Both the position numbers and the translations under genes were made by a program. A DNA stretch of 59,063 bases from a virus. Taxonomy: Duplodnaviria > Caudoviricetes. The notes beneath the pieces were generated by a model that made no database searches, was not told the DNA's origin, and saw nothing but the letters and a program-made list of their open reading frames with translations. The stretch covers positions 1 through 59,063 of IMG/VR virus record IMGVR_UViG_3300032013_000003, one strand, 5' to 3'. Of this stretch, positions 1-40,887 are shown one piece after another; position 1 is the first letter of the stretch; every line of letters begins with the position of its first letter.

Positions 1-130
1 GCGAAGGGTGCAGATCGACGCCGAACTCGCGGCGCTCAAGGCGAAGGTCACCGGCGGCCAGGTCGCCGCCGATGGCGCATCTCCGTTGTCCGAGGCGCGC
101 AAGGGCGTCTGGCAGAGCCAGCGCGCCAAG
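1..130. repeat. Terminal direct repeat, left copy (circular assembly overlap)
   Basis: 1-130 matches 58934-59063 except position 4 (A vs C). Confidence 0.95.
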
Positions 131-3100: not shown

Positions 3101-3676
3101 AACGCATCGACGCGGCCCGAGCTCGTCACCCAACTCGTGCGGCGCGAGATGCATGGCGTGGTCGACCCGGATCTGCTCGCTGCGGCAGAGAAGCACCTGA
3201 TGGCCCGGTTCGAAGCGCTGGCCAAAGTCATGCCAAAGGCGCCGCCGCCGAACCCCTACTCGAAGCGCGAGTGGCTGCCCTCGCCGGCCGCGGCCTACGA
3301 CCTGGCGCAGCGCCTCGCGGTCGTCCACGACCCGGAGCAGGCGTTCATCGACCCGACGCCCGCGAAGGCGCAGACGGCCGCGGCGGTCTACCCGAAGCTG
3401 CTCCAGTACGCGCAGCAGCGCCTGATGGACCGCATCGGCGACGCGAGCAAGCCAGTGCCCTACGAGCAGCGGATCCGCGGCGCGCTCGTGTTCAAGGTTC
3501 CACTGGACGACTCACTGCAGCCCGACCACGCGGCGATCTTGGCGACCGCGCACGCACCATCGCCGATCACGGACGCCCAGCCCGCGCCGCAGCAGGCGCC
3601 GACGCCGTCCATTGCGAGTAACACCAACCTGACGTCCGTCTACCAGACGGGCATTGAACGACGAGCCATGAGGTGA
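8..3676 (+). CDS. C-terminal 1222 aa of a giant internal virion/ejection protein (joined to 57951..58940 across the origin, ~1552 aa); contains a ParB/Srx-like domain
   Basis: In frame with the ORF from 57951; Ala-rich helical; VDVAPDGRLYVEDGNHRIQAA motif; last of three large genes after the nozzle. Confidence 0.75.
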   Translation: MQIDAELAALKAKVTGGQVAADGASPLSEARKGVWQSQRAKLKQIGLLDEEIDAMTHEQARARLGMGPQPVTVPEAKEAELAQAVAEHDAARAELDDILRRLEAPDIGPGIAPPERGVPVGEFGAPGQRGYDPGNVKAPGPPSVMEAQTADVTAVGKKKFAQGTPIEGAAIAPPNEQAPMVGGAVSVKPVGRPSAGTLEATLADGTVKPLTKHEVGDWVQSQLPDGFTDGGHLQTYRPFSIEYGIPATAEDIVENSLYVVKPSHLIDDGLMGNELRVANRDSVLSAWNEGKRLRPVDVDVAPDGRLYVEDGNHRIQAAARDDRPIVVRFRKTGPDWKPQSGAHDISGRVAAELPKTRPEATDSLTGQLRGMKSQLGAGADLKAMGAPGRAEYAAAKAERTAAASEHFRAQANAKNYAGSQMAADEAAARSELAIGGSASEPKNPKRVEASRKAAAASVERRREIHSAVASNLPDELQVAWDKEGYKFMQEESARIRGNRDPISAASDISESFTEKYGSASESGRGYEGDRYHRRLEIEAKHADSWAKEQSKRHNAIAKHDEAERVRDQADRIASIAERWKRPADDVTELWSERAAVLEYEGGMSRIEAERTALDEISGMVNEAHGRTAMDEFFRNLTRPKTRDAYVAANIGRAMREEGSHAKALAKVEREWADVTSNVRSKATTTPFDFEQSGLRFDRSTRNYHEAPPMRSAVDDVAHAAEVVTKYERASAKLTEALGPDAPPAAQQAAKAFREAEEAAERKQMERTTRAIDDHADAQAKAKTVPYKSRAASEAKQSARGGQSSTEPAPPPNNDWIEEAKQLFGGRRLSMEERLAKDAALRKGTVDAAKQDVAHADAALSKARVAETEAKIGARQATDTAVASRAAMEAAAPGAAAVPTSALGSLATTAAVIAEMGVPGLPHPHDIPVIGPLLGIYLKYKAFKYAAGRFVGRVPATADARAASLVARTKDRIATAVDRTLGLAEAAAPKMRGGIVATSTVLGHRLLDDGEPDAPKDANAQQMAAVRIREIANASTRPELVTQLVRREMHGVVDPDLLAAAEKHLMARFEALAKVMPKAPPPNPYSKREWLPSPAAAYDLAQRLAVVHDPEQAFIDPTPAKAQTAAAVYPKLLQYAQQRLMDRIGDASKPVPYEQRIRGALVFKVPLDDSLQPDHAAILATAHAPSPITDAQPAPQQAPTPSIASNTNLTSVYQTGIERRAMR

Positions 3677-4167: not shown

Positions 4168-5310
4168 ATGAGCCTCACGATCGGCATCGGAATCGGTGGT
4201 CGCGTTGGTGGCGGCGGGGAACCGCTCGCCCCGACGGCGACGATGACCGTGTCGATCTCCGACAGTCCGGATCCGGTCAACGCGTCGAGCAACATCACGT
4301 ACACGATCCAGGCGACCGTTACCGGTGCAGCCGATGCGGTCGGAGTCACCGCGACGTTCACACTCGATTCGCAGATCGCGTTCGTCTCGCACAGCGGCAC
4401 CGGCTGGTCCCTGTCTCGGGTCGGCCAGGTCATCACGGCGACGGCCAACGCGCTCGTCTCGGGTGCCGCTCCAGCAATCACCGTCGTGGCCACGGCGCCG
4501 GCGGTCAATGCGACGGTCACGAGCAGCGTGGTCCTGACCGCAGCGAACGCGACGCAGCAGACCGACACCGAGAATACGACGGTCAACGCCTCGATCGCTG
4601 GCGTGACGCGAGACGCGACTAACCTCAACTACTACCCGGCAAGTACGGCCGAGTGGACCACGTTCATGACTGCGATCGGGCTCGCCACTGGCAACCCCGG
4701 CAACGTGTGGGCGCTCCAGGGCACCGGCAACGCAGCGGACACCGGCGCCGGAGGATGCACGCTGACGAACACGCTTGACCTGGCACAGCAGGCGGTCGCG
4801 GGCGCGTCGCGACTCGGATACAAGAGCGCCGACGGCGGAAGCAGCGAGCGGCTCGTCGGGACGACAGGGGCGCCGGATCCGCGAACCACCTCGACCCTGC
4901 TGCTCCACTACATCGACTTCGGTGCCCTGCCGGCCGCGTCCGCGCGCGACATCATGGGCGTGCAGACCGGCGCGATCATCAGATATGCGGCGGGATCTGG
5001 CGTGCTTCAGATCGTCGCCGGCGCGACGACTCCATCGCTGAACGACTACCACAACACGGTCGGGTGGATCGCGATGCGCGTCAACATCACGGCCAGTACG
5101 ATCACCCTGTTCACGCAGCTCGAGAAGCTGTCGGGCACGTTCGTTCTTCCGAACAGCGGCTCGGCGATCTGGTTCGGCGGACACACGGCGCTGTCGAGCG
5201 CAGCGGTGCACTCGTATGGCGCGGAGTTCAGCGGCGCTGCCGCTGAGATCAGCGATGCCCAGCTCAAGACACTGCTGCAAGGGCTAGGAGCGACGATCCC
5301 ATGGTCATGA
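4168..5310 (+). CDS. Putative tail/virion protein with DUF11-like Ig domain and C-terminal beta-sandwich
   Basis: SISDSPDPVNASSNITYTIQ is a DUF11-type motif; Thr/Ala-rich. Confidence 0.6.
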   Translation: MSLTIGIGIGGRVGGGGEPLAPTATMTVSISDSPDPVNASSNITYTIQATVTGAADAVGVTATFTLDSQIAFVSHSGTGWSLSRVGQVITATANALVSGAAPAITVVATAPAVNATVTSSVVLTAANATQQTDTENTTVNASIAGVTRDATNLNYYPASTAEWTTFMTAIGLATGNPGNVWALQGTGNAADTGAGGCTLTNTLDLAQQAVAGASRLGYKSADGGSSERLVGTTGAPDPRTTSTLLLHYIDFGALPAASARDIMGVQTGAIIRYAAGSGVLQIVAGATTPSLNDYHNTVGWIAMRVNITASTITLFTQLEKLSGTFVLPNSGSAIWFGGHTALSSAAVHSYGAEFSGAAAEISDAQLKTLLQGLGATIPWS

Positions 5311-6155
5311 CCCGTCGGTTGCTCCTCGTGATGGGCCAGTCGAACGCGGGCGGGCTGTGCGTCGCCTCGAACGTGAACAACTACGCCGATTTCGCCACCC
5401 CAGACGCGAGCATCCCGTTCGTGTCGCGCGGGCTGCTTTCCTCCGACCCGCCCGGTGGCGACGTGCTCGACCCGGCCAGCGGCGTGCGCTCGCTTGGACC
5501 GCGCCTCATCTCTATGGGCGGCTCGCTCGGCGTCGGGACGTGCGGACCTGAGGTGTCGGCAGGCAAAGAACTGCACCGCATGATGCCCAATGAGTGGGCC
5601 GTCGGGCAGATCTGGATCGACTCGTCCAACATGGACAAGTGGAAGCCTACGACGGTGTACCCGAACACAGGACCGCCGTTCTGGCACGCCACGATGCTGG
5701 CGCAGATCGAGGACATCCAGCTCAAAACCAAGTCGTCTCTTCGCCGCGGCGCCGTCATGTGGCTGCAGGGCACGTCGGACGCGATCGACGGCATCGAGAG
5801 CGCCTACCTGACGAATATGAACGCACTGTTCGGGGCGATCGGTGCGCGGTACTGCGCCAACGCCGACGACCTGGTCATCTCGGTCGATCGCATCTCGCAG
5901 CTGTTCATCGACAACTTCGGCGCACCCGCAAACATCGGTGGCCCCGTGGTGCGCGCTGCCGAGACCGCGTTCGTTGCGGCCAAGCCGTCGCGCCGAGCGC
6001 TGATCAACACCGATGACCTGGCCCTGCGCGTCGACAACGCGCACTTCGCGGACAACAGCTACGCCACGGTCGGCGTGCGGCACGCAGCGGCGATCTTCCA
6101 GCTGGTCGCGGCCGGTGGTGGCGGAATGATCGGCCCGTCGATGGGGATGCGATGA
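5307..6155 (+). CDS. SGNH carbohydrate esterase (sialate O-acetylesterase/SASA-like)
   Basis: GQSNA block I, WLQGTSDA block III, DNAH catalytic DxxH; ATGA overlap with upstream stop. Confidence 0.8.
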   Translation: MTRRLLLVMGQSNAGGLCVASNVNNYADFATPDASIPFVSRGLLSSDPPGGDVLDPASGVRSLGPRLISMGGSLGVGTCGPEVSAGKELHRMMPNEWAVGQIWIDSSNMDKWKPTTVYPNTGPPFWHATMLAQIEDIQLKTKSSLRRGAVMWLQGTSDAIDGIESAYLTNMNALFGAIGARYCANADDLVISVDRISQLFIDNFGAPANIGGPVVRAAETAFVAAKPSRRALINTDDLALRVDNAHFADNSYATVGVRHAAAIFQLVAAGGGGMIGPSMGMR

Positions 6156-12921: not shown

Positions 12922-12949
12922 ACTGTACGTCATGTATTCCATCCGTCAA
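12922..12949 (-). promoter_or_regulatory. Sigma70-like promoter, probably leaderless
   Basis: TTGACG-16nt-TACAGT, then 6 nt to ATG at 12915. Confidence 0.55.
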
Positions 12950-14004
12950 CCCCCTTTCTTCGCCCCACCTTCCAACACCTTCCACGCCCTCCGCCGCGCC
13001 GCATCCTCCGCTTGCCGCTTGTCGATGTACGCCCCGCCGTCCGTGATTCCCGTCGAAGCGTGCCCAAGCGCCGCCGCGACCGTCTCCGAGTGCGAGCCCT
13101 GCACCTTGCCGATCGTGGCCGACGTCCCGCGCAGCCCGTGTGGCCCCACCTCAGGCACGCCGGCCAGCTTGCACAGGCGCCAGACCTGCTCCCTGGCCCA
13201 GTCCTGCGGGCGAGCTCGCGTGCTGGCGTGCGCGAACAGCGGATCCTCGGCCGCGCGGTCAGCGGCCAGCCTGAGCAGCCCCGGGCGCAGTACCGCGGGC
13301 ACCTCGGCCTGGCGCCGGCCGGCCTCCGTCTTCGAGTCCGGGATCCAGAACATCCGGCCGTCGTCGTCCACGTCGCGAACGTGCGCGAGCACGACCTCGC
13401 CGTTGCGGCTGCCCAGCAGCAGGTAGGCCAGCGTGCAGACCGCACCATCGTCCGTGGCGAGCCGCGCCGCGCAGACGTCGATCACCTTGCGGCTCTCCTC
13501 GATGCGGAGCTGCTTCTTGCCCTTGCGACGACGGCCGCGCCCCTTGACGCGCGCGAACGGATCCGCAGGCAACCATCCGCGCTCAGCGCACCACCGGCCG
13601 AACGCTTTGCACACGCTCAGCCCGTTGCGGTGCGTGTCGACCGCACCGGTGCGCGCGTCGTAGAGCTGGGTCGCAAGCTTTGGGGTGAGACGCTTCAGAT
13701 CCAGCATGCCATTGGACTCGAGCGCTAGCATCTTGCGCAAGTGAAACGCCTCACGCGCGACCGTTGACGTGCGGAGCTCGCCTTCGCTCACCCGCTTCTC
13801 CTGGCTCGCGAGGTACGCGGCGACCGCGATGTCGATCGTTCGGGTCTCGGCGTTCTTGCGGAACGCGGCGATGAAGTCGTTCGCTTGGCGCTCGCTCTCA
13901 AAGTAGCGAGAGTCTCGAGAGCCATCCGCTCCGACGCAGATAACTCGCCAGCTGTTCTCGCTGACGTGGAATGGTCCGTGACAGCGTTCGTGTCGTTGTC
14001 GCAT
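12946..14004 (-). CDS. int: Tyrosine integrase
   Basis: Catalytic R (GSRNGE), K (SKT), HxLR (HGLR), LGH and Y (GGAY). Confidence 0.92.
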   Translation of the reverse strand: MRQRHERCHGPFHVSENSWRVICVGADGSRDSRYFESERQANDFIAAFRKNAETRTIDIAVAAYLASQEKRVSEGELRTSTVAREAFHLRKMLALESNGMLDLKRLTPKLATQLYDARTGAVDTHRNGLSVCKAFGRWCAERGWLPADPFARVKGRGRRRKGKKQLRIEESRKVIDVCAARLATDDGAVCTLAYLLLGSRNGEVVLAHVRDVDDDGRMFWIPDSKTEAGRRQAEVPAVLRPGLLRLAADRAAEDPLFAHASTRARPQDWAREQVWRLCKLAGVPEVGPHGLRGTSATIGKVQGSHSETVAAALGHASTGITDGGAYIDKRQAEDAARRRAWKVLEGGAKKGG

Positions 14005-17128: not shown

Positions 17129-18037
17129 TCACTTGCCCTCACGCTCGAGGCGCGCGATCTCGGCAGCCTCTTCGGGCGAGGGGTCACCAGCCTGCGCGGC
17201 CATCTCCGCAGCGATCTGCGACGACAAGTCTGCCTTGTGGCTCTCACCGCCGGTCTCGACGTCGATGATCCTGCGCTGGTCGTCGACCGTGCGCGCGTTG
17301 TCCAACGCGTTCGCGATGTGCCACGACTCGTCGAACTGGAGGAACTTGCCGAGGCGGTGTATCGGCGCTTTCCTCATCATCTGGTCGGGCCAGTCGCGCC
17401 ACGCCGGGCTGTCGCTGCCGGCCTTGCGGACGGCGTCGAGGTCGTCGCGGTCCATCACCTCGAACACCGACTCGCCGTTGGCGAGCTTCGCGATCGCGTA
17501 CGCCGCGATGATCTCCTTGCCGCGGTTGCCGAAGTTCGGCCGGTGCACGATCGAGTTGGCTGTCCCCTCGTCGACTTCGAACAGGTCGCCCTCATAGACC
17601 ACGTTCGAGCGGATCGAGCGGACGCCGCGCGAGCGCAGCGCCATCTTGATCACACCCTTGTAGCCGCGCTGGAACGTCGCCTCCATCACGCCCTTGTTCT
17701 TGTAGGGCACGAGGTACGCCTCGCCCTTGAGGGCGCCCGGCTCGAGCCCGGTGACGGCGCACGCGATGAGACCGAGGTAGATGGACTCCTTGGTGCACTG
17801 GCGCAGCTTCTCGCCGCGCTCGTCGGCCATGTCGCGCAGTGTGAATCGGAGCAGTGCCTCGGGCTTCACGCTGTTCTTGGCCCACTCACGGAGCACACCG
17901 ACGCGTGCATCGAGGAACGCCTTGTGCTCATTGATGGTGGCGAGCGCCGTGGTCTGCTGCGGCGCGGACTGGATCGCCTTGCTGCTGGCATCGTAGTTCA
18001 GGCGCGAACCGGCGCGCGGTGGCTGTGTCGTGCTCAT
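17129..18037 (-). CDS. recT: RecT-family single-strand annealing protein
   Basis: GLEPG...EAYLVPY, GYKG, VVYEGDLF, W...MMRK motifs. Confidence 0.92.
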   Translation of the reverse strand: MSTTQPPRAGSRLNYDASSKAIQSAPQQTTALATINEHKAFLDARVGVLREWAKNSVKPEALLRFTLRDMADERGEKLRQCTKESIYLGLIACAVTGLEPGALKGEAYLVPYKNKGVMEATFQRGYKGVIKMALRSRGVRSIRSNVVYEGDLFEVDEGTANSIVHRPNFGNRGKEIIAAYAIAKLANGESVFEVMDRDDLDAVRKAGSDSPAWRDWPDQMMRKAPIHRLGKFLQFDESWHIANALDNARTVDDQRRIIDVETGGESHKADLSSQIAAEMAAQAGDPSPEEAAEIARLEREGK

Positions 18038-18270
18038 GGCGTCGGTACCCACACCTTCACAATGCGATCGACCTGGTGAACCTGCGTGCACTCGACGCCG
18101 CCGTACAGCTGCAGGCCTTCGTCGTGATGCACCTCGGCCGTGAAGCGCCAGTGCGCGCCGTCATCCTCGAACACGAAGACGGCCCGGCGACCGTGTCGCC
18201 ACTCGGATGCCGAGACCTCCTCGAGATCCATCTCTCGAATCGATGCCTCGTCGAACGTTTTCTTGGTCAT
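18034..18270 (-). CDS. Hypothetical protein
   Basis: Coupled between yqaJ and recT. Confidence 0.6.
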   Translation of the reverse strand: MTKKTFDEASIREMDLEEVSASEWRHGRRAVFVFEDDGAHWRFTAEVHHDEGLQLYGGVECTQVHQVDRIVKVWVPTP

Positions 18271-19214
18271 TGGTCCTCCTTCCAGCTCGTCGGCGTGCGC
18301 AGCGCCCACGTGTTCTTGGTCTTGTATGCGGTGATGTTGTCGGCGCGATCGCCGCAGTCGATGCGCGTGGCGCCGGCGGCGCTCAGGCGGAGCAGGAGCG
18401 AGTTCTTGCGCAGCTCCTCGTCCTTGGTTGCCCGCTTGCGCGCGATGCGGGCCTCGCGCCACAGCGCGATATCCATCGTCATCTCGGCGTCGGCGATCAC
18501 GACCTGCGGCTTGACGCGGTCCATCTTCTCGCTCACGTGCATGCGCCACGCGTCGGTGTGGTCGACCGTCGGCTCGCGGCCGAACTTGACCATGCCCCAG
18601 AACTCGCGCAGAGACTCGAGAATGCGGTCCTCGATGGCCTTGTCGCGCTCGATGCGCAGGGGGCCGATCTGCTTCTGGCCGCCGCACAGGCACACGATGT
18701 CGACCCACGGCAGGTCAGCCACGGCCATCTCGACTCGGCACTGGACCTCGTACTTGGCCGGCGGCCCGTCGCGCCAGTCGTCCTCGAGCCACGCCGAGCA
18801 CGTTTTGACCTGGAGGCCGCCGAGCAGACCGTCGGCGCGCAGCTGGCGGACGGTTGGGGCGTAGCCGTCCTTCTCGGGGTCGAACTCGGTCGTGCCAACC
18901 TGATGTGCACGCGCGAGCTCCTCGACCAGACCATCGGGCGTGCAGCGAAGCCACCCGTCCATCACGAAGCTGCCCGTCGGGACGAACACCCGGACCTTGC
19001 GGTCATGGGCGTACTTGCCGCGGATGACCGGCTCGAGCACGGTGCCCCAGTACGCGGCCTCCTCGGGTCCGTCGTCGCGCACTGGCAGCCCGCGGTGGCG
19101 ACGCCAGATCTTCATGGGGGCGTTGTACTTGTCCAACCCAAGAACTCCTGCTGCCTCGGACGCCCCAAGGCACGACAGGTCGCGTTGCTGGTCGACTGCT
19201 ACCGCGATGCTCAC
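18267..19214 (-). CDS. YqaJ-like viral recombinase exonuclease
   Basis: LGASEAAGVLGLDKY, WGTVLEP, TPDG, QVKT; adjacent to recT. Confidence 0.88.
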   Translation of the reverse strand: MSIAVAVDQQRDLSCLGASEAAGVLGLDKYNAPMKIWRRHRGLPVRDDGPEEAAYWGTVLEPVIRGKYAHDRKVRVFVPTGSFVMDGWLRCTPDGLVEELARAHQVGTTEFDPEKDGYAPTVRQLRADGLLGGLQVKTCSAWLEDDWRDGPPAKYEVQCRVEMAVADLPWVDIVCLCGGQKQIGPLRIERDKAIEDRILESLREFWGMVKFGREPTVDHTDAWRMHVSEKMDRVKPQVVIADAEMTMDIALWREARIARKRATKDEELRKNSLLLRLSAAGATRIDCGDRADNITAYKTKNTWALRTPTSWKEDQ

Positions 19215-19570
19215 TTTCCGCCCCCCTCGATCCACCTCTGGATCACCCCGCACGCGGTGGGCCACGTCTCGCCTGCTTGGCGATCCCACGCGAGGGTCTG
19301 CAAGATCATCCGGTCCTGCTCGGACAGCGACGTCGCGCGGTGCAGTGAGACCAGCGCACGGGCCAGCTGGCGAAAACCGGGTCGCGACGGGTCGACCGGC
19401 ATCGACAGCACGATGTGCGCGTAGGTCAGCGCCTGGTCGATCGTCCACTCCCTGGGAGGCTCGTCGTCGGGCGATGGCTTGTGCATCGACTCGGTGACCT
19501 CCTCGTCGGACCCGGCGATCGGGTGCGGGCGAGTAAGGCGCGGAATGGTGGTGCGTGAGGAGTCGGTCAT
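19211..19570 (-). CDS. Hypothetical protein
   Basis: Coupled ORF. Confidence 0.5.
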   Translation of the reverse strand: MTDSSRTTIPRLTRPHPIAGSDEEVTESMHKPSPDDEPPREWTIDQALTYAHIVLSMPVDPSRPGFRQLARALVSLHRATSLSEQDRMILQTLAWDRQAGETWPTACGVIQRWIEGGGK

Positions 19571-19911
19571 TGGACCACCTTGCGTCGGATGTCAGCAGCC
19601 AGGTCCGCCGCTTCCTCGTGAGAGATGAGTGTCGGCTCCAACGAATTGCGCGGCGACGACATCAGGTAGCCATCGCTGGTTCGCTCGGCCGCGCACCTCC
19701 TGAAGTCTTCTGACTCACCGCGCTCGATGGCCGAGGCGATTGCCAACATCTCCTCTCCGGTCCCCTCTATGTCGGCGTTGCCAAGCCTCGACGAGCAACG
19801 CAAGGCTGCTCCGAACTCCGTGCGCTCGAACCACCTGCGCCCGTCGTGTTCGGCGCGCTCGATGAGCCACCAGTTATCGATCGAATCGCACTTGCTGAGC
19901 ACGCACTTCAT
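19567..19911 (-). CDS. Hypothetical protein
   Basis: Coupled ORF. Confidence 0.55.
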   Translation of the reverse strand: MKCVLSKCDSIDNWWLIERAEHDGRRWFERTEFGAALRCSSRLGNADIEGTGEEMLAIASAIERGESEDFRRCAAERTSDGYLMSSPRNSLEPTLISHEEAADLAADIRRKVVQ

Positions 19912-20420
19912 GACTCCACGTCCGTTCTGTCGAACTGTTCGTCGACGGTGACTACCGGCAGATCTCCGTGTGGTCCGTTGAAGTCACCAGGAACTACTGG
20001 GCACGTCATAGGATCCATGTCCGCATGCCTCGCCACGCTCGCGGCCACATCATGCCTGCGCTGCTCGTCGATGACGTCGCACTGAGCGAGGACCCCGGCC
20101 TGCCAGTCGGGCGATGGTGCAGGAACCGGCATGTCGCGGCCGGCCGTCAGGATCTCGCGCTTGAGCCAGCCGGCCCATTCGGCCTTCGAGCGGGGCACCG
20201 TGTCTGCCTCGTTCGCAGCGTACCCTCGCTGCTCGGGGCGCGACGATAGGTAGGTGCCGTACGCCAGCTCGGCCGCGCGGACCTCGATCGGGTTGGCGCG
20301 AGCGGCCACGCCGAGCGAGCGGTACTCCGAGCAGCCCGGCACGTGGCACTCGATGCGCAGCAGTTCGTTGTTGTCGCGGTACACGCCGACCCACTTGTGC
20401 TTGTGTTCCTGTTTGTCCAT
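19908..20420 (-). CDS. Hypothetical protein (partial paralog of 31399..31671)
   Basis: AAGGGG RBS; EVRAAELA motif. Confidence 0.55.
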   Translation of the reverse strand: MDKQEHKHKWVGVYRDNNELLRIECHVPGCSEYRSLGVAARANPIEVRAAELAYGTYLSSRPEQRGYAANEADTVPRSKAEWAGWLKREILTAGRDMPVPAPSPDWQAGVLAQCDVIDEQRRHDVAASVARHADMDPMTCPVVPGDFNGPHGDLPVVTVDEQFDRTDVES

Positions 20421-20458
20421 ATCGTCCCCTTGTTGTGAGTCAGCGTGTTCGCGGAGTG

Positions 20459-20659
20459 CTACGCCGGCGGCGGCCAGCACGAGCGCATGTAGTTCGTGTC
20501 GCAGCAGTGCGACTCGACGACGAGGCGCGGCGGCGGGTCCGGGTTGCACACGCCGCCCGGAGTGCTGGCCTTGAACTCGGCGCCGCCTTCGACGTCGCGA
20601 AGTTCGGCGATGGTCAACGTGCGGATCGCTTCGACTGTCAGTTGCAGTTTCTTCCTCAT
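20459..20659 (-). CDS. RiPP (lanthipeptide-like) precursor peptide with double-glycine leader
   Basis: MRKKLQLTVEAIRTLTIAELRDVEGG leader; 40-aa core with 4 Cys and 5 Ser/Thr; AAGGAG RBS. Confidence 0.65.
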   Translation of the reverse strand: MRKKLQLTVEAIRTLTIAELRDVEGGAEFKASTPGGVCNPDPPPRLVVESHCCDTNYMRSCWPPPA

Positions 20660-20755
20660 TCCCTATCTCCTTGTTTCGTACTGCGTTGAAAGGGCCGGCC
20701 CTCGTCGGAATTGCCCTCGGATGCCCTCACGAGGTCACGACGAGGACCGGCGGAA

Positions 20756-21022
20756 TCACGGCGGCGACCAGCCCGTGCGGATGAGGGCCTCGGCTTCGGC
20801 GTCCGTGATCTCGGTCCATGTCGGATAGACATCCGAGAGCAACGCGTACGCGTTGACAGCCAGCGACAGCGCGCCTGCCACCGGAGTCCCGAGAGCACGA
20901 AACACCTCAGCGTAGACGCGCGTTCTCCGGTTGCCGTGCTCGGTGTAGACTCCGCCGCTCGCCGCGATCGCGCAGATCAGCGCCGCCTCTTCGCGCACAC
21001 GCTTGCTGTAGCGGGGTTTCAT
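20756..21022 (-). CDS. Hypothetical protein (paralog of 31148..31402)
   Basis: MKPRYSKR...AEAEALIRTGWSP. Confidence 0.65.
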   Translation of the reverse strand: MKPRYSKRVREEAALICAIAASGGVYTEHGNRRTRVYAEVFRALGTPVAGALSLAVNAYALLSDVYPTWTEITDAEAEALIRTGWSPP

Positions 21023-21024
21023 GG

Positions 21025-21558
21025 CTACCACGTCGGCTCGGTCAAGTCGCGTACGTACTTGGGCGCGGTGCGCGTACGCTTTGACTGCAGCTCCGGGATC
21101 GCTGGCGCGCCGAGGTCAGCGCGGACGACACCGACATGCTCGATGAGCCTGGTCGTGCGACTCGCAGCCTTCGCGGCGGCCTTGCGCTTCGCCTTGGTCG
21201 CCTTCTTGTTGTAGCGGCGCATGGCGGCGAGCCCCTGCGACTTCGGCACGGGGTTCAGCTTGTACTCGCCGGGCGCCATCAGGCCAGCACGGTCGAACGA
21301 GACGATCTCGCGCTGAGCGCTGGTCGGCAGTACGTAGCGGACGATGCGGTCGGCGTACTCGATGAACGCGGTGGACCGGAAGAAGTACGCGGCGACGACA
21401 CCCGGCTCCTTCTGCGTGGCCCGCGCGAACGCGCAGCACTTGCTGTTCTTCGCCTTGGCCTTCTTGATGTCGTCGACGGAGACCCCGATGAGCGCGGGCT
21501 GCGTTGCGTCGACGATTGGGAGATTCTTCTGCTTCGCGATGGTGTGGACGTAGGACAT
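21025..21558 (-). CDS. Basic hypothetical protein
   Basis: AAGGAG RBS; clean high-GC3 codon usage. Confidence 0.65.
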   Translation of the reverse strand: MSYVHTIAKQKNLPIVDATQPALIGVSVDDIKKAKAKNSKCCAFARATQKEPGVVAAYFFRSTAFIEYADRIVRYVLPTSAQREIVSFDRAGLMAPGEYKLNPVPKSQGLAAMRRYNKKATKAKRKAAAKAASRTTRLIEHVGVVRADLGAPAIPELQSKRTRTAPKYVRDLTEPTW

Positions 21559-23789: not shown

Positions 23790-24137
23790 TCAAGCCTTCT
23801 TCGTACCAAACCGTCGCGCTATCTGTTCCACGAGCGCTTTGTCAGCCTCCGATAACTCGGGCCATCTGCGGATGAGTTCGCGGAGTCTGTCGTCGATGAG
23901 GGGCGCTACCCCACTTGGGGGCGTTCCGCCGAGCGCCGCCACGATTGCGGCCCATTCGTAGGTCCAACTCGCCGTCCCATTAAGGAGCAAATATAGGTTC
24001 TGCCGGGTCATGCCGGCGCGACGCGCCAACTCTGCGCGTGTCCACTTGCGATCGGCCAGCCGGCGCTCGATCCATGCCTTGTCTTCCTTGGTCACGCGGT
24101 ACGGCGTGCGTGGCTGCTGCTCCTTGGAGTCCGGCAT
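23790..24137 (-). CDS. CI-like XRE HTH repressor
   Basis: WTRAELARRAGMTRQNLYLLLNG HTH; divergent from cro-like gene. Confidence 0.8.
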   Translation of the reverse strand: MPDSKEQQPRTPYRVTKEDKAWIERRLADRKWTRAELARRAGMTRQNLYLLLNGTASWTYEWAAIVAALGGTPPSGVAPLIDDRLRELIRRWPELSEADKALVEQIARRFGTKKA

Positions 24138-24167
24138 GGTCGGATTTCCTCGGTAACACGAGCAGAT

Positions 24168-24209
24168 GCCAAGTCGCTCTTGACTTGGCGGACAAGTGTG
24201 CCTTACCTT
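24168..24209 (+). promoter_or_regulatory. PR-like promoter with operator GCCAAGTC-6nt-GACTTGGC
   Basis: Perfect 8-bp inverted repeat overlapping TTGACT; TACCTT -10 element 7 nt before the cro ATG. Confidence 0.7.
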
Positions 24210-24216
24210 TGTGGTC

Positions 24217-24453
24217 ATGACTGATGGTCAGCGGCTGATGAGATGGCGTAAGGCTCGTGGGATTTCGCGGCAAAAGCTGGCGAAGACCCTTGCGGTTTCG
24301 CGACAGACGATCCTCGCGTGGGAAACCGGGACTTGGCAGCCATCGGAGGATCGGTGGCCGCAGATCGCGCGCGCACTTGGATTGCCTGCGCCGAGGCAGG
24401 CGAAGCAGTACGCCCCACTCCCCGAACCTCCGACCGCGCGAGCCGCCTCGTGA
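24217..24453 (+). CDS. Cro-like XRE HTH regulator
   Basis: RKARGISRQKLAKTLAVSRQTILAWETG. Confidence 0.85.
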   Translation: MTDGQRLMRWRKARGISRQKLAKTLAVSRQTILAWETGTWQPSEDRWPQIARALGLPAPRQAKQYAPLPEPPTARAAS

Positions 24454-24710: not shown

Positions 24711-25796
24711 GTGGAAAACCTCGTCCAACGTCTGATGTCGAGCCGCACCGACTGGCTCGAGCACCTCGAGAACGATCTGCGCATCTCGGTCGTGCGCGAC
24801 GGCGACCTCGCCTCGCTCAAGTACAACCAGATCGAGTCGCCGATGGCCGACCCGATGGTCCAGCAGTGCCGCGGCATGGTCGTCGACGTCGCACGTGAAC
24901 GTGTCCTGGCGTGGCCCTACAACAAGTTTTGGAACTTCGGCGAGCACCTCGCGGCGCCGCTCGACTGGTCGACCGCGCGCGTGCAGGAGAAGCTCGATGG
25001 ATCGCTGATGATCCTCTACTTCGACCGCGAGTGGTGCGTGGCGTCCAGTGGACACCCGACGGCGGGCGGCTCGTTCGGCGCCGACACCAGGACGTTCCGC
25101 GATGCGTTCTGGTCCGTGTGGAACGACCTCGGCATGAAGCCTCCGACCGCTGCGCGCTCGCAGCACACGACGTTCATGTTCGAACTGTGCGACTCGCCCA
25201 ACCGCGTGGTCGTGCGCCACGAGAAGCCTCGTCTCGTCCTGCACGGCGCGCGAGATCTGGAGGGTGGCGAGATGCATCACAACGACCTCGGGCTGCTGGC
25301 CGACAAGCTCGGATGGGAGCATGTCGCTGACCATCCGATCTCCACAGTCGCGGACTGCCTCGCGGCTGCCGAGGCGCTCGACCCGCTCAAGCAGGAGGGT
25401 TTCGTCGTCGTCGACGCCTCGTTCAACCGCGTCAAGATCAAGTCGCCGCGCTACGTCATCCTGCACCACCTCAAGGGCGAGGCAACCCCGCGGCGAGCGA
25501 TCGAACTGTGGCAGACCGGCGAGACCGAGGAACTGCTCAACAGCTTCCCCGAGTTCAAGCCGGTCATCGAGCCGATTCACGCCGACCTGGACCTGATCGC
25601 GGCGCAGTGCGTGAAGGACTTCGAGGAAAACATGCCGCGCGCGAGCCGCAAGGAGTTCGCGATGGCCGTGAAGGACCGGCCGTGGTCGTCGGTGCTGTTC
25701 AGGATGCTCGGCGAGGAGCGGCACGACGTGGAGACCGCGAAGGCGATCATGCGGCGCGGCTCGCTGCAGAGCCTGGAGAGGATGCTCGGGCGATGA
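24711..25796 (+). CDS. RNA ligase, T4 Rnl1-like
   Basis: CRG, KFWNFGE, EKLDGS (adenylation motif), TFMFEL, EGFVV, KIKS. Confidence 0.88.
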   Translation: MENLVQRLMSSRTDWLEHLENDLRISVVRDGDLASLKYNQIESPMADPMVQQCRGMVVDVARERVLAWPYNKFWNFGEHLAAPLDWSTARVQEKLDGSLMILYFDREWCVASSGHPTAGGSFGADTRTFRDAFWSVWNDLGMKPPTAARSQHTTFMFELCDSPNRVVVRHEKPRLVLHGARDLEGGEMHHNDLGLLADKLGWEHVADHPISTVADCLAAAEALDPLKQEGFVVVDASFNRVKIKSPRYVILHHLKGEATPRRAIELWQTGETEELLNSFPEFKPVIEPIHADLDLIAAQCVKDFEENMPRASRKEFAMAVKDRPWSSVLFRMLGEERHDVETAKAIMRRGSLQSLERMLGR

Positions 25797-31147: not shown

Positions 31148-31402
31148 ATGAAGCCCCGCTACTCCAAGCGCACCGTCGACGAGGCAGTGCAGTTGCTCGA
31201 TGTGTATGCCAGTCAGATGGCGACGAACTATTGGCATGAGACGCTCGCGCATACCGCTGACCGCGTTGGCACGGCCTTCGATGCATGGGATCTGGCGTTC
31301 AAGTCCTGGCTGTCGGTGCATGACATGTCGCTGAACAGCGAAGGGTGCAGGGACAGCGGCGCAGAAGCCGCACAGCGACTGCGCGAAGGGTGGCGACCGT
31401 GA
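31148..31402 (+). CDS. Hypothetical protein (paralog of 20756..21022)
   Basis: MKPRYSKR...AEAAQRLREGWRP. Confidence 0.65.
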   Translation: MKPRYSKRTVDEAVQLLDVYASQMATNYWHETLAHTADRVGTAFDAWDLAFKSWLSVHDMSLNSEGCRDSGAEAAQRLREGWRP

Positions 31403-33743: not shown

Positions 33744-34154
33744 GTGGGTCGCCCGCGCGCTCAGTTCCCGGCCCTCGTCGACGTCAACATCGACGGCATC
33801 GTCATCGGCTCGCATGCGCTGACGAAGAACGTCGAGCGTCTCGAGCGCATCCTGAACGTCGTCGGCCGGCGCCTCGCGCACTGGCTCAAGTCGACCGCGG
33901 ACACGCAGCCGCTCCCACCCGAGGAGTGGACCGAGAATTTCAAGTTCTACTCGAGCGCGCTGACCAACCTGCTCAAGGAGCAACGCGAGCGCTACCGCCT
34001 GACGCAGCACGATCAGGCCACGCCCGAACAGCTGCAGGCCCAGTTCCGCGAGGAGCTGCAGCGAGCTCTGCAGTCCTTCACGCCGCAAGAGCGTGCGTTC
34101 ACCCTGGCACTCTGGGATGCGAGCGCGACTACCACAACGGAGACGCCACAGTGA
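33744..34154 (+). CDS. Possible terminase small subunit
   Basis: First late ORF, helical, GRP N-terminus; position only. Confidence 0.35.
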   Translation: MGRPRAQFPALVDVNIDGIVIGSHALTKNVERLERILNVVGRRLAHWLKSTADTQPLPPEEWTENFKFYSSALTNLLKEQRERYRLTQHDQATPEQLQAQFREELQRALQSFTPQERAFTLALWDASATTTTETPQ

Positions 34155-37586: not shown

Positions 37587-37930
37587 GCCAGTCCGCGACG
37601 TGGGACACGATGCAGGTGGCGCGCGATGCCCGGCTGTGTGGACGACTCGACGTCGCGGAAGCGCTGCAGGCGGAGATCGACGAGGATCTGCCCGCGTACT
37701 CGCACTTCTACGCAAGAAAATGCAGTCGACCGCACCAGCTGTCACAGGTCGACTTCCTCGAGTGGACCGGAACGCACGAGGCGGCGCGGCTCGTGTCAGT
37801 TCAGATGGCGCAGTCGCTGAACTACAGCGCGCCGATTCAGTTCGAGCGCGGCTCCGATGCCATCGAGATGCGCATGCGCTACTACCACGCCAGCCACTTC
37901 GGCTGGAACGGCGTGTTCCGGATCGACTGA
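37583..37930 (+). CDS. Protein resembling the major capsid C-terminus
   Basis: DAIEMRMRYY...GWNGVFRID vs MCP DSAEARLANY...GWNWNAKIN. Confidence 0.5.
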   Translation: MSQSATWDTMQVARDARLCGRLDVAEALQAEIDEDLPAYSHFYARKCSRPHQLSQVDFLEWTGTHEAARLVSVQMAQSLNYSAPIQFERGSDAIEMRMRYYHASHFGWNGVFRID

Positions 37931-37934
37931 CGCC

Positions 37935-39809
37935 ATGCACCTCGACCCCTCCGTCCTCTCGACCCTCGGCAGACTGGCCAAGCTGCGGCCGGCGGAGGCG
38001 GTGAGCGACGAGGCCAAGGAGACGCCCGAACAGGCTGCGGCGGTGCTGCGCAACCTGGGCTACCCCCACCCCAAACAGGCGGCGTTCTTCCGACGCAGCA
38101 AGGCAGCATGGAAGGCGACCTGCAAGACGCGTCGAGCCGGCGCCACTGCGGGCGGCGTGCGCGAGTTCTTGGCCCGAGCCATCGAGCAGCCAGGTTTCCG
38201 CGCCACGTACGTCACGACGACGCGCCAGGAAGCCCACGACCGCGCGTGGGAGAACGACAATGACTCAGGCTTCGTCCAGATCCTTCGCAAGTACGCCACG
38301 CCACGACGTCACCCGACGCTGAAAGAGGCGTTCGTGTGGGGCGGGGTTCAGATCGACGTCCGCGAGGGCGACCTCGTGCTCAAGTTCTCCAACGGGTCGC
38401 ACATCGAGCTGTTCGGCGCGGACAACGTGCGTCGGCACCGCACCAAGCGCGGCAACTCCAAGCACGTCTTCTGGATCGACGAGGCGCAGGACTTCCCGTC
38501 GCTCGACGTGTTCTTCGATCGCGTCGTGATCGGATCGCTGACCGACTACGAGGGCGAGGCGTGGATCACGGGAACCCCCGGCGTCGACTGCGTCGGCATG
38601 TTCTACGATATCACCAAGGATGTCGACGACGGGCGAATCGAAGGCTGGGAGGTCCACACGATCGCGGTGGTCGATAACCCGTACTTCGGCCACGTCGTCA
38701 CTGATACAACCGATGGCGCGACGATCTACTACGTCGAGGACAACGCCGGAGAGCGATCCGGTCCGTACGACACCACCGAGCAGGCCGAGAAGATCGCAGT
38801 CGAGGTCCGGTGGGAGCGCACCGCCGGCGCGGCCAAGCGCAAGAAGAACTGGAAGGGCACGGAACCAGACTTCGTTCGCGAGTGGCTCGGGCGCTGGGTG
38901 AAGGACGATGCTCGGTTCGTCTACCCGGTCCACGCGGTGCCGAAGCACGTACTCATCTACGCACCGCAGCGGCTCGCCGACAACCCGTTCTGGTCGACCG
39001 ACGATCGATTCAAGGATCACCCGCCCTGGTACGACCACAACGCAGCGCTTGCCGACCTGCCGCACCCGCCCCGGAACTGGGGCCGCCGCGAGTATCAGTG
39101 GCTGTTCGGTCTCTGGGTCGACTTCGGCTACAACCCTGACCCGTTCGCCATCGTGATCGGCGCGTTCACCCCAGACCTGAACGACGTCTACGAGATGTTC
39201 AGCTGGAAGTGCACCAAGGTCCACACCGACGATCAGGGCGGCTACATGAAGCTCGCCTACGACACCGTCGACTCACTAGTGTCGTTCGTCGGAGACCCGG
39301 CCGGCAAGCAGGACGACTTCGAGGTGTGGAAGACGCGGATGAACCTGCCCATCACCGAGGCGAACAAGCAGGGCAAGAACACGCTCGAGGAGTTCCTCGC
39401 TGACGACATCCGTCGCGGCTGGTACCACCTGCGCGCGGAGCCCGACGGCAAGAACCCGTCGCCGCTCTACCTCGAGATGCAGCACCTCGTCTACCTCCCC
39501 GGCAAACCCGGCAAGACTCGTGAGGTTCACAAGCATCGCAAGGTCAACGGCATCGAGTACGGCGATCATTGCGTCGACGCGGCCAGGTACGGCCACGCTG
39601 ACCTCACGCACTATCTGGCTCGAGCGCCCGAAGAGAAGCCACCCGCCGGTTCACGCGAGGCGCTTCAGGCCGAGGCAGATCGCGAAGAGGAGCGCCTCGA
39701 TGCCCGCATGGCCCGGCAGCAGCGGGCGTACGAGGAGGGCGACGAGGTCCCGGGCGAGTACAATCAGACCGAGAACACCGTGTATGGGAGCCATGCGTAT
39801 GACTACTAG
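37935..39809 (+). CDS. terL: Terminase large subunit
   Basis: PHPKQ Q-motif, RRAGAT Walker A variant, WIDEAQ Walker B, TGTP, VDFG and DHCVDAARY nuclease motifs. Confidence 0.92.
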   Translation: MHLDPSVLSTLGRLAKLRPAEAVSDEAKETPEQAAAVLRNLGYPHPKQAAFFRRSKAAWKATCKTRRAGATAGGVREFLARAIEQPGFRATYVTTTRQEAHDRAWENDNDSGFVQILRKYATPRRHPTLKEAFVWGGVQIDVREGDLVLKFSNGSHIELFGADNVRRHRTKRGNSKHVFWIDEAQDFPSLDVFFDRVVIGSLTDYEGEAWITGTPGVDCVGMFYDITKDVDDGRIEGWEVHTIAVVDNPYFGHVVTDTTDGATIYYVEDNAGERSGPYDTTEQAEKIAVEVRWERTAGAAKRKKNWKGTEPDFVREWLGRWVKDDARFVYPVHAVPKHVLIYAPQRLADNPFWSTDDRFKDHPPWYDHNAALADLPHPPRNWGRREYQWLFGLWVDFGYNPDPFAIVIGAFTPDLNDVYEMFSWKCTKVHTDDQGGYMKLAYDTVDSLVSFVGDPAGKQDDFEVWKTRMNLPITEANKQGKNTLEEFLADDIRRGWYHLRAEPDGKNPSPLYLEMQHLVYLPGKPGKTREVHKHRKVNGIEYGDHCVDAARYGHADLTHYLARAPEEKPPAGSREALQAEADREEERLDARMARQQRAYEEGDEVPGEYNQTENTVYGSHAYDY

Positions 39810-40803: not shown

Positions 40804-40887
40804 ACCCTATTGCGCGCCCGCGCGCGTTGTGTAACGCTCCCTGCAAATCAACCGGTCCACAGGCAAAGGGACCATCGATCCCTTGCC

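What the first reader, a model, noticed from the sequence alone, without database searches (positions are those of the whole stretch)
20459..20659. Orphan phage-encoded RiPP-like precursor peptide
The 66-aa ORF has a leader MRKKLQLTVEAIRTLTIAELRDVEGG. It combines a KKLxLxxExIxxL motif like that of Gram-negative lanthipeptide leaders with an ELxxVxGG double-glycine cleavage site. The core AEFKASTPGGVCNPDPPPRLVVESHCCDTNYMRSCWPPPA has 4 Cys and 5 Ser/Thr. It has its own strong RBS and is not overlapped with neighbours, unlike most of the arm. I see no LanB/C/M, radical-SAM or C39-peptidase transporter in this apparently complete genome. Inference: it borrows host RiPP machinery to make a secreted signal or toxin, or titrates host RiPP enzymes as counter-defence.
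Basis: partly seen in the sequence, partly recalled or inferred. Interest (0 to 1): 0.78.

Follow-up and report, generated by a model that had tools for sequence, protein, structure and literature searches.

The report
Phage-borne stand-alone lanthipeptide-type precursor peptide
A temperate soil phage carries a small gene for a peptide whose front end is the export and processing tag used by lanthipeptide antibiotics, yet the phage has none of the enzymes to process it, so it probably relies on its host's machinery.

Summary
The 66-aa ORF at 20459-20659 (minus strand) is very probably a real gene: GC3 0.88, AAGGAG 7 nt before the ATG, and about 18 metagenomic relatives.

Its first 26 residues are a double-glycine leader of the type Pfam PF28317 / NCBIfam NF038153 call "class I lanthipeptide":
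- The curated NCBIfam score is below cut-off (15 vs 22 bits).
- A profile of 11 PF28317-annotated proteins scores it 32.5 bits (next best segment in the phage 7.3; 0 of 20,000 shuffles reach it).
- A profile of six annotated LanA genes beside LanB, LanC and a peptidase-ABC exporter on a Spirosoma plasmid also picks it as top hit.

The core belongs to an undescribed mosaic subfamily with C-x-P-D-P-P-P-R and C-W-P-P-P motifs. One member is named from a Gemmatimonadota MAG.

The phage record (98% complete, novel, temperate) has no detectable LanB, LanC, radical-SAM, C39 or ABC gene.

Best reading: an enzyme-less precursor that depends on host enzymes and exporter. The host, expression, modification and function (bacteriocin, signal or decoy) are untested. 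I rate it a new variant of a known kind, of moderate-to-high interest.

The parts
20459..20659 (-). Precursor peptide gene, 66 aa plus TAG stop
   Evidence: ORF list and translation. GC3 0.88. Relatives.
20582..20659 (-). Leader, residues 1-26. It has the L-x-L-x-(K/V)-x5-L motif and E-L-x-x-V-x-G-G, a double-glycine cleavage site.
   Evidence: NF038153 aligns to residues 3-26. hhalign gives 98.8% over 30 columns ending just past GG. Own profiles score 32.5 and 16.8 bits. The motif is described in PMC7268733 (passage read).
20462..20581 (-). Core, residues 27-66. It has 4 Cys, 5 Ser/Thr and 8 Pro, with modules C-N-P-D-P-P-P-R and V-V-E-S-H-C-C-D-T-N-Y-M-R-S-C-W-P-P-P.
   Evidence: Counts. Modules shared with P0002, P0004, P0007-P0018, P0023 and P0031.
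20667..20672 (-). Shine-Dalgarno AAGGAG, 7 nt before the ATG
   Evidence: Sequence, coordinates.
20695..20750 (-). GC-rich hairpin (13-bp outer stem with one G-U). It starts 6 nt after the stop of the upstream gene and ends 22 nt before the RBS. No U-tract follows. It may be a terminator or an RNA-stabilising element.
   Evidence: The 121-nt stretch folded (20650-20770) has a minimum free energy of -48.7 kcal/mol, z -1.89, with 5 of 200 shuffles as good. Arm coordinates. The terminator scan did not call it.
20756..21031 (-). Upstream neighbour, 91 aa, unknown function. It has a paralogue at 31148-31402.
   Evidence: No PHROG or Pfam hit. BLASTP to the paralogue gives E 3e-7.
19908..20423 (-). 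Downstream neighbour, 171 aa, unknown function. Its own RBS lies 35 nt after the peptide stop, so it is probably co-transcribed.
   Evidence: No PHROG or Pfam hit. Sequence.

Best explanation
What it is. The gene encodes a stand-alone precursor peptide of the class I lanthipeptide (LanA) type. It has a 26-residue leader with the Gram-negative L-x-L-x-K-x5-L motif and a canonical double-glycine end, followed by a 40-residue core rich in Cys, Ser/Thr and Pro.

How it would work. The phage supplies only the substrate. Shown here: the leader homology, the core subfamily, and the absence of maturase or exporter genes in the phage. Inferred:
1. In an infected or lysogenic cell, the host's peptidase-containing ABC exporter (C39 domain) cuts after Gly26 and exports the core.
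2. The host's LanB dehydratase and LanC cyclase, which recognise this leader type, install thioether rings first.
3. The secreted product acts outside the cell, most simply as an additional bacteriocin-like or signalling peptide specified by the phage.

Genomic setting. The gene sits in the leftward operon of a temperate phage. That operon runs from the repressor-like HTH gene through RecE and RecT to the integrase. The peptide gene has its own strong RBS, which by analogy with lambdoid phages suggests early expression.
For: Real gene.
- GC3 0.88 and AAGGAG at -7.
- An exhaustive phmmer search of 1.84 billion representatives gave two true relatives (P0002 at E 5e-7, P0004 at E 5.6e-5).
- Profile searches added about 16 more relatives sharing C-[WNM]-P-D-P-P-P-R and/or W-P-P-P motifs.
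- Against L002, 11 of 30 identical residues use different codons, with dN/dS about 0.5.

Leader type.
- NF038153 is the only NCBIfam hit. 7 of 19 subfamily members match it at E <= 1, best 3.3e-5.
- 12 of the 55 proteins found with the subfamily profile carry a precomputed PF28317 annotation.
- hhalign of the subfamily against those leaders gives 98.8%, E 1.3e-16.
- A profile of 11 PF28317-annotated proteins scores the peptide 32.5 bits, with the next segment at 7.3 and 0 of 20,000 shuffles reaching it. Over 16,373 six-frame segments of 98 loci it hits only the two peptides and L098.
- Six annotated LanA genes lie between LanB, two LanC, a peptidase-ABC transporter and HlyD on a Spirosoma plasmid. 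They score 23.2-35.3 bits with the same profile.
- A profile of those six alone, independent of my own searches, ranks the window peptide first (16.8 bits, E 3.3e-4; next 7.0) and aligns as far as E-S-H-C-C-D.
- PMC7268733 (passage read) describes exactly this L-x-L-x-K-x5-L plus GG leader with C39 proteases in Bacteroidetes class I clusters.

Unstructured precursor. The ESM Atlas model of the peptide has pLDDT 0.32. Its feature neighbours ranked 2 and 3 are class I lanthipeptide leader clusters (score 0.85, a lead only).

Orphan status.
Against: - The window peptide itself is under the curated NF038153 cut-off (15 vs 22 bits).
- The Pfam copy available here lacks PF28317, so that model could not be run directly.
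- The proteins used for my 11-sequence profile were retrieved with a profile that included the window peptide, so there is some circularity. Only the Spirosoma profile is free of it, and its score is modest.
- No LanB, LanC or PCAT lies beside any member I could read: the phage, and the 3.4-kb contig L002. Association of this core subfamily with lanthionine enzymes is therefore not shown.
- The host is unknown, so its possession of the machinery is not shown.
- dN/dS of about 0.5 is weak. The C-terminal module is also nearly identical at the DNA level, which could reflect recent transfer rather than selection.
- No sigma-70-like promoter was found. If the gene is expressed only in the lytic cycle, the time available for a maturation and export pathway is short.
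- No adjacent immunity-like membrane protein was found.
Confidence: 0.5

Rival explanations
1. It is a double-glycine-leader peptide that is exported and cleaved by a host peptidase-ABC transporter but is not a lanthipeptide. It would be unmodified or disulfide-bonded (4 Cys), or modified by another enzyme class such as radical SAM or a prolyl-directed peptidase.
For: - The GG leader consensus is generic for PCAT export (recalled: Havarstein 1995 and Dirix 2004, both cited in PMC7268733).
- The window peptide is below the NF038153 cut-off.
- 1 of 19 subfamily members weakly matches TIGR04149, an rSAM-modified GG-leader RiPP family (E 0.084).
- The conserved motifs are Trp/Pro-rich rather than classic ring motifs.
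- A prolyl oligopeptidase sits in the Spirosoma reference cluster.
Against: - The nearest curated family for 7 of 19 members is the class I lanthipeptide leader.
- The E-S-x-C-C-D-T...S-C module resembles the E-S-C-C-N-N-S-C end of the Spirosoma LanA cores.
- Every Cys has a Ser/Thr 2-6 residues upstream (from the sequence).
Confidence: 0.17
2. It is a counter-defence decoy. The phage over-produces a leader-bearing peptide that occupies host LanB/LanC or the exporter. This blocks production of a host lanthipeptide that would otherwise hinder the phage.
For: - Class I lanthipeptide clusters with anti-phage function ('lanthiphages') are reported in Actinobacteria (preprint 10.1101/2024.06.26.600839; abstract and outline read).
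- The gene lies in an operon that is probably early, has a strong RBS and has no cognate enzymes.
Against: - The core is conserved as a family with cellular-looking members. A pure decoy would need only the leader.
- The reported anti-phage lanthipeptides are actinobacterial. Nothing links them to this leader type.
Confidence: 0.08
3. It is a phage communication peptide (arbitrium-like logic). It would be secreted during infection and sensed by later infections to bias lysis versus lysogeny.
For: - The phage is temperate: integrase, repressor-like HTH.
- The peptide gene lies in the regulatory/early arm.
- Phage-encoded peptide signalling is established for arbitrium (reviewed in PMC12360287; passages read).
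Against: - No receptor candidate was found. Neighbours have no TPR/AimR-like or any other family hit.
- Export would be through a GG leader, not a Sec signal.
- The 40-residue Cys-rich core is unlike known 6-residue arbitrium signals.
- Relatives occur in non-syntenic contexts.
Confidence: 0.08
4. It is a hitch-hiking or decaying host gene: a precursor picked up from a host cluster by imprecise recombination, with no role for the phage. Alternatively it is not a gene at all.
For: - The phage is a singleton with no relatives to show conservation.
- No expression data exist.
- dN/dS is only about 0.5.
Against: - The frame is intact with a near-ideal RBS and phage-like GC3.
- GC content equals the phage average.
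- A second member (L002) also lies among small overlapping phage-like ORFs without enzymes.
Confidence: 0.12

Closest known systems
Class I lanthipeptide precursors (LanA) of Bacteroidota with L-x-L-x-K-x5-L ... GG leaders (NCBIfam NF038153 lant_leader_L1a; Pfam PF28317). The pinensin family and the six LanA genes of Spirosoma oryzicola plasmid NZ_CP089546.1 are examples.
   Same: - Leader length, motif and GG end.
- Profile scores in the same range as the annotated Spirosoma LanAs: 32.5 bits vs 23.2-35.3.
- Cys- and Ser/Thr-rich core with an E-S-x-C-C ... S-C module.
   Different: - Encoded by a 66% GC phage with Shine-Dalgarno-led genes, not in a bacterial cluster.
- No LanB, LanC, PCAT, HlyD or peptidase within the 59 kb.
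- Below the curated NF038153 cut-off.
- The core carries Trp/Pro motifs (C-x-P-D-P-P-P-R, C-W-P-P-P). A full-text search for 'WPDPPP' found them in 0 papers.
Prochlorosin-type systems, in which many precursor genes lie far from one promiscuous synthetase
   Same: The precursor is encoded remotely from its enzymes, and the cores are hypervariable and mosaic behind a conserved leader (remote precursors are mentioned in PMC7268733; passage read).
   Different: Prochlorosins are class II (LanM) with Nif11 leaders in cyanobacterial chromosomes. Here the leader is of class I type and the carrier is a phage. A search for prochlorosin plus cyanophage found 1 paper, unrelated.
Phage-borne bacteriocin clusters, for example sublancin on Bacillus subtilis prophage SPbeta
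   Same: A temperate phage carries a gene for a double-glycine-leader, Cys-containing secreted peptide.
   Different: SPbeta carries the whole set: precursor, modifying enzymes, immunity and transporter (preprint 10.1101/2020.10.01.322628; passage read). This phage carries the precursor only.
Arbitrium AimP peptides of Bacillus phages
   Same: A small phage-encoded secreted peptide in the lysis-lysogeny region of a temperate phage.
   Different: - AimP uses a Sec signal and an adjacent AimR receptor (recalled).
- Here the leader is GG-type, the 40-residue core is Cys-rich, and no receptor-like neighbour was found.

Membership tests
Class I lanthipeptide precursor with NF038153 / PF28317 leader | Leader scores above the curated family cut-off | tested here: not met
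   NF038153 scores 15.0 bits, E 0.02, cut-off 22. PF28317 is not in the Pfam copy at hand. 7 of 19 subfamily members match NF038153 at E <= 1, best 3.3e-5.
Class I lanthipeptide precursor with NF038153 / PF28317 leader | Leader homologous to annotated members (L-x-L-x-K-x5-L motif, about 25-30 residues, ending GG) | tested here: met
   - Profile of 11 PF28317-annotated proteins: 32.5 bits, next 7.3, 0 of 20,000 shuffles reach it.
- hhalign 98.8%.
- Profile of six Spirosoma LanAs: 16.8 bits, E 3.3e-4, top of 971 segments.
- In the window the K of the motif is V.
Class I lanthipeptide precursor with NF038153 / PF28317 leader | Core with Ser/Thr donors and Cys acceptors | tested here: met
   5 Ser/Thr and 4 Cys in 40 residues.
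Class I lanthipeptide precursor with NF038153 / PF28317 leader | Encoded with LanB dehydratase and LanC cyclase | tested here: not met
   - No Lant_dehydr_N in six frames, though that control was weak.
- The LanC six-frame control failed.
- No such Pfam or PHROG hit on any ORF of 300 aa or more.
- None on L002 either.
Class I lanthipeptide precursor with NF038153 / PF28317 leader | Dehydration and thioether rings in the product | not testable with these tools
   Needs co-expression and mass spectrometry.
Double-glycine leader peptides exported by peptidase-containing ABC transporters | Leader consensus L(-12) ... E(-8) L(-7) x x [VIL](-4) x G G | tested here: met
   Read from the sequence: L15, E19, L20, V23, G25, G26. 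The consensus itself is recalled.
Double-glycine leader peptides exported by peptidase-containing ABC transporters | Cognate C39-ABC transporter encoded nearby | tested here: not met
   No Peptidase_C39 (control rang in 7 of 14 genomes) and no ABC_tran (control rang in 14 of 14) in six frames.
TIGR04149 rSAM-modified GG-leader RiPP | Leader matches the model, with a radical SAM/SPASM maturase nearby | tested here: not met
   The window peptide has no hit at E <= 10. 1 of 19 members matches at E 0.084. No Radical_SAM in six frames, with a control of 14 of 14.
Arbitrium (AimP/AimR) | Sec-type signal peptide and an adjacent TPR receptor gene | tested here: not met
   The N-terminus is charged, not hydrophobic (from the sequence). 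The 9 neighbouring genes scanned have no receptor-like family.
Self-sufficient phage-borne bacteriocin cluster (sublancin type) | Precursor together with modifying enzyme, immunity and transporter on the phage | tested here: not met

The most novel reading that the evidence does not exclude
This is an 'enzyme-less' viral RiPP. The phage carries only a substrate gene whose leader plugs into the host's class I lanthipeptide synthetase and peptidase-ABC exporter. Infected or lysogenic cells therefore secrete a phage-specified thioether peptide. That peptide could be a weapon or signal made entirely on borrowed machinery, or it could jam that machinery when it makes an anti-phage lanthipeptide.
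Probability: 0.3. Interest if true: 0.8.

Novelty: new variant of a known kind. Interest (0 to 1): 0.6.

Why it matters
- Phages are known to carry whole bacteriocin clusters and their own peptide signals. My full-text searches did not turn up a phage that carries only a lanthipeptide-type precursor.
- If the host enzymes do process it, precursor genes alone can be mobile cargo that reprogrammes a host's RiPP output. This would be a cheap route to chemical diversification.
- Genome-mining pipelines that require a nearby synthetase would miss such genes.
- The finding also defines a small, undescribed core family (C-W-P-D-P-P-P-R / C-W-P-P-P) behind a known leader. That gives a concrete substrate set for testing the promiscuity of Gram-negative class I enzymes.
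- It gives a testable candidate for phage interference with lanthipeptide-based defence.

Tried and rejected
Searches for relatives that found nothing or only noise
- Word-based search with the single peptide found only itself.
- Viral-contig scans with the peptide, with A2 and with A5 found nothing.
- The scan with A1 gave one spurious locus, L003: an A-E-L-R-D-V-E-G-G stretch inside a 188-aa protein.
- A degenerate DNA pattern for W-P-D-P-P-P-R gave 94 stretches in viral contigs. My script found 95 matches, 77 of them in open frames of 150 aa or less. By inspection none has a GG-type leader; all look like off-frame GC-rich noise.
- Three of the six phmmer hits (P0003, P0005, P0006) are long repetitive proteins, and I dropped them as not related.

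Searches for the host or related phages
- The genome-contig scan with A2 was empty (0 of 42 stretches).
- The scan with the terminase was also empty (0 of 38), so no bacterial genome handle was obtained.
- Megablast of 12 kb found nothing. tblastn of portal and terminase against 50,697 phage records found nothing.
- RecT matches were all 33% identity or less and spread over many hosts.
- The RecE scan of viral contigs was empty.
- The ESM Atlas on the portal named only the P22/SU10 portal type and gave no host.
- No tRNA was found.

Expression and transcription signals
- No RNA holder was listed; one DNA run only.
- The promoter and terminator scan found none.

Other dead ends
- tblastn of the window peptide against plasmids gave only chance-level hits, E 2-9.
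- The 13-mer of the hairpin arm recurs at 33768-33780 inside a coding region without a partner arm, so I judged it chance.
- I did not attempt structure or complex prediction. The Atlas model is already disordered (pLDDT 0.32), and no partner protein is known.

Tools and files not available
- Supplementary files of papers were closed. The precursor lists of PMC7268733 may hold members of this subfamily, and I could not check.

Full report
**The record.** The window is a whole IMG/VR virus record of 59,063 bases, with no end repeats, that CheckV puts at 98% complete. GC is 63-70% throughout.

- It is a temperate tailed phage. It has an integrase at 12946-14004 (-), RecT at 17129-18091 (-), a RecE-like exonuclease at 18267-19448 (-) and a repressor-like HTH protein at 23790-24218 (-).
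- On the other arm it has a large terminase at 37857-39809, a P22/SU10-type portal at 40810-42843 and tailspike-like proteins.
- It has no close relative. Megablast of 12 kb, and tblastn of portal and terminase against 50,697 phage records, found nothing. RecT matches are 33% identity or less. A RecE scan of 2.9 million viral contigs was empty.
- The only sequencing run that holds it is a soil metagenome DNA run.

- GC by codon position is 0.60/0.52/0.88, the pattern of the flanking genes. The overlapping plus-strand frames do not show it.
- AAGGAG lies 7 nt before the ATG.
- The gene is separated by 35 nt from the next gene and by 96 nt from the previous one.
- The longer gap holds a 13-bp-stem GC-rich hairpin at 20695-20750. 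The 121-nt stretch that was folded (20650-20770) has a minimum free energy of -48.7 kcal/mol, z -1.89, with 5 of 200 shuffles as good.
- No sigma-70-like promoter or U-tract terminator was called.
- The core has 4 Cys, 5 Ser/Thr and 8 Pro in 40 residues.

**Relatives.**

- A word-based search found only the protein itself.
- An exhaustive phmmer search of 1.84 billion representatives gave six hits at E <= 0.001: itself, two true relatives, and three long repetitive proteins that I set aside.
- The two true relatives are P0002 (73 aa, E 5e-7) and P0004 (64 aa, E 5.6e-5).
- Two rounds of profile search followed. A1 gave 9 proteins at E <= 10 among 104 candidates. A3 gave 55 among 883.
- These enlarged the set to about 18 short proteins. 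All have an M-[RK]-K-K-L ... G-G leader.

The cores are built from a few shuffled modules:
- T-C-S-[MV]-C ... T-G-C-H-T-G-D-x-C
- (S)-C-[WNM]-P-D-P-P-P-R, often at the very C-terminus
- V-[VI]-E-S-x-C-C-D-T-N-Y-M-x-S-C-W-P-P-P
- C-x-D-P-W-P-P-P-P-P

The window peptide combines the second and third modules. All members come from metagenome assemblies. The only named one is a hypothetical protein of a Gemmatimonadota MAG (P0012). A full-text search for 'WPDPPP' found no paper.

**The leader is a class I lanthipeptide-type leader.** Several lines agree.

- *Curated model.* NCBIfam NF038153 (lant_leader_L1a, 'class I lanthipeptide') is the only family hit, but below its cut-off (15 bits against 22). 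Of 19 subfamily members, 7 match it at E <= 1 (best 3.3e-5). One weakly matches the rSAM-target leader TIGR04149.
- *Pfam annotations.* 12 of the 55 proteins found with the subfamily profile carry a precomputed PF28317 (Lant_leader_dom) annotation. One of them, P0023, also shares a core module with the subfamily. The Pfam copy available to me lacks that model.
- *Profile against profile.* This gives 98.8% probability, E 1.3e-16, over 30 columns ending just past GG.
- *Profile of 11 PF28317-annotated proteins, none from the subfamily.* It scores the window peptide 32.5 bits, E 4e-9 over all 971 six-frame segments of the phage. The next segment scores 7.3, and none of 20,000 shuffles exceeds 12.2. 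Over 16,373 segments from 98 other loci (909 kb) it hits only the L002 peptide (35.5 bits), the window copy, and one ORF in L098 (25.0 bits). The next scores 9.2.
- *An annotated reference cluster.* A tblastn search with one of these proteins found a cluster on a Spirosoma oryzicola plasmid. Six tandem 'class I lanthipeptide' genes lie between two LanC genes, a flavin oxidoreductase, a peptidase-domain ABC transporter, a lantibiotic dehydratase, an HlyD adaptor and a prolyl oligopeptidase. Those six score 23.2-35.3 bits with my profile, the same range as the phage peptide.
- *Independent profile.* A profile built from those six alone owes nothing to my earlier searches. It again ranks the phage peptide first in the phage (16.8 bits, E 3.3e-4; next 7.0). 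It aligns through to E-S-H-C-C-D, opposite the E-S-C-C-N-N-S-C ends of the Spirosoma cores.
- *Literature.* Walker et al. 2020 (PMC7268733; passages read) describe this leader: L-x-L-x-K-x5-L in place of F-x-L-D, ending in Gly-Gly, with a C39 protease often in the cluster.
- *ESM Atlas.* The neighbours ranked 2 and 3 are class I lanthipeptide leader clusters at 0.85, which is only a lead. The Atlas model of the peptide is disordered (pLDDT 0.32), as expected of a precursor rather than a folded small protein.

**It is orphan.**

- Six-frame searches of the phage found no Peptidase_C39, Radical_SAM or ABC_tran, with controls ringing in 7, 14 and 14 of 14 genomes. They found no Lant_dehydr_N, but that control was weak: 1 of 14, under cut-off.
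- The LanC search had a dead control and says nothing.
- To cover this, every ORF of 300 aa or more was scanned with Pfam or PHROGs. None hits a RiPP enzyme, nor do ten further ORFs.
- The one relative whose DNA I could read is L002, a 3.4-kb metagenome contig at 67% GC. It also lies among small, overlapping, unannotatable ORFs, followed by two secreted-looking proteins and no enzymes.
- Apart from the peptide, nothing on L002 resembles the phage.

**Selection.** Between the two peptide genes, 11 of 30 identical residues use different codons, and dN/dS is about 0.5. The shared C-terminal module is also nearly identical in DNA, which fits modular exchange as much as purifying selection.

**Other phages.** The subfamily was not found in any other viral contig. 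A scan for the consensus leader found one further viral contig, L098 (38.9 kb, 60% complete). It has a 76-aa ORF with an M-K-L-T-L-H-R-E-T-I-R-N-L-T start just before the small terminase gene, but no clean GG site and no Lant_dehydr_N on the record.

**Host.** This could not be settled.

- Indirect hints point to a high-GC soil bacterium:
  - 66% GC with Shine-Dalgarno-led genes.
  - A P22-type portal.
  - A leader type known from Bacteroidota.
  - One subfamily member in Gemmatimonadota.
- The wider Gemmatimonadota/Bacteroidota group is a reasonable guess. Cultured Gemmatimonadota carry 0 to 4 lanthipeptide clusters by antiSMASH (PMC11271474; table passage read). This remains inference.

**Mechanism.** Shown here: a translatable gene, a leader homologous to class I LanA leaders with a canonical double-glycine site, a Cys/Ser/Thr-rich core belonging to a small family, and no processing or export genes on the phage.

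Inferred:
- The host peptidase-ABC exporter cuts after Gly26 and exports the core.
- Host LanB and LanC modify the core first.
- The product acts outside the cell.

I put about 0.8 on 'LanA-type GG-leader precursor' and about 0.5 on the whole chain. The rivals are:
- Export without lanthionine formation, or with another chemistry (0.17).
- A hitch-hiking or dead gene (0.12).
- A decoy against a lanthipeptide-based defence (0.08). This is made thinkable by the 'lanthiphage' preprint, of which I read the abstract and outline.
- An arbitrium-like signal (0.08), for which there is no receptor candidate.

**Comparison and novelty.**

- The nearest known things are Bacteroidota class I LanAs: same leader, but always inside clusters.
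- Next are prochlorosin-type remote precursors, which follow the same logic but are class II and chromosomal.
- Then the sublancin cluster of prophage SPbeta. It is phage-borne but complete, with precursor, enzymes, immunity and transporter (preprint 10.1101/2020.10.01.322628; passage read).
- My searches found no report of a phage carrying only such a precursor.
- Two reviews or surveys I looked into do not mention one in the passages shown: PMC12360287 and PMC11118758.
- I rate it a new variant of a known kind.

**Limits.** The genomic contexts of 16 of the 18 relatives, and published precursor lists, therefore remain unseen.

Noticed in passing
L098:6291-6521 (+): A second viral contig (38.9 kb, 60% complete, 57% GC) has a 76-aa ORF that starts with a consensus lanthipeptide-type leader (25.0 bits with my profile). 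It lies directly upstream of a P27-like small terminase gene. It lacks a clean GG site, and the record has no Lant_dehydr_N.
   Followed up: partly
window 20756-21031 (-) and 31148-31402 (+): The gene just upstream of the peptide has a paralogue on the other arm. Both start M-K-P-R-Y-S-K-R and end ...R-x-G-W-x-P (31% identity, E 3e-7). Neither has a family hit.
   Followed up: partly
window 20462-20524 vs L002:2182-2241: The C-terminal core module is almost identical in DNA between the phage and the metagenome contig, while the leaders differ at many synonymous sites. The cores look assembled from exchangeable modules.
   Followed up: partly
L099:16566-19013: The Spirosoma class I lanthipeptide cluster includes a prolyl oligopeptidase family peptidase. 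If such peptidases are usual partners of this leader family, the conserved P-D-P-P-P-R and W-P-P-P motifs could be processing or protection sites. This was not tested.
   Followed up: no
window 1-3676 and 57951-59063: Long ORFs run off both ends of the record (5'-open 2-3676, 3'-open 57951-59063). The same peptide is on record on a 59,074-base contig. The record is probably a circular or permuted genome cut inside a tail gene.
   Followed up: no
window 5301-6155 (+): A sialic-acid-specific acetylesterase-type carbohydrate esterase (Pfam SASA, E 6.8e-11) sits among tail genes, next to a DUF11-domain protein at 4168-5310. It is likely a receptor-modifying tail enzyme.
   Followed up: no
window 24711-25796 (+): An RNA ligase family protein (PHROG 562, E 2.5e-46) is the first gene of the rightward arm, opposite the repressor-like gene.
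   Followed up: no
L002:2318-2340 and window 20657-20673: The ribosome-binding stretch before the phage peptide (C-A-A-G-G-A-G-A-T-A-G-G-G-A) recurs letter for letter before the secreted-looking gene that follows the relative on L002. This may be chance, or it may reflect a shared host translation signal.
   Followed up: no
L003:7654-8220: A 188-aa viral protein contains A-E-L-R-D-V-E-G-G, identical to the end of the phage leader, but inside a larger secreted-looking protein. I judged it unrelated.
   Followed up: partly
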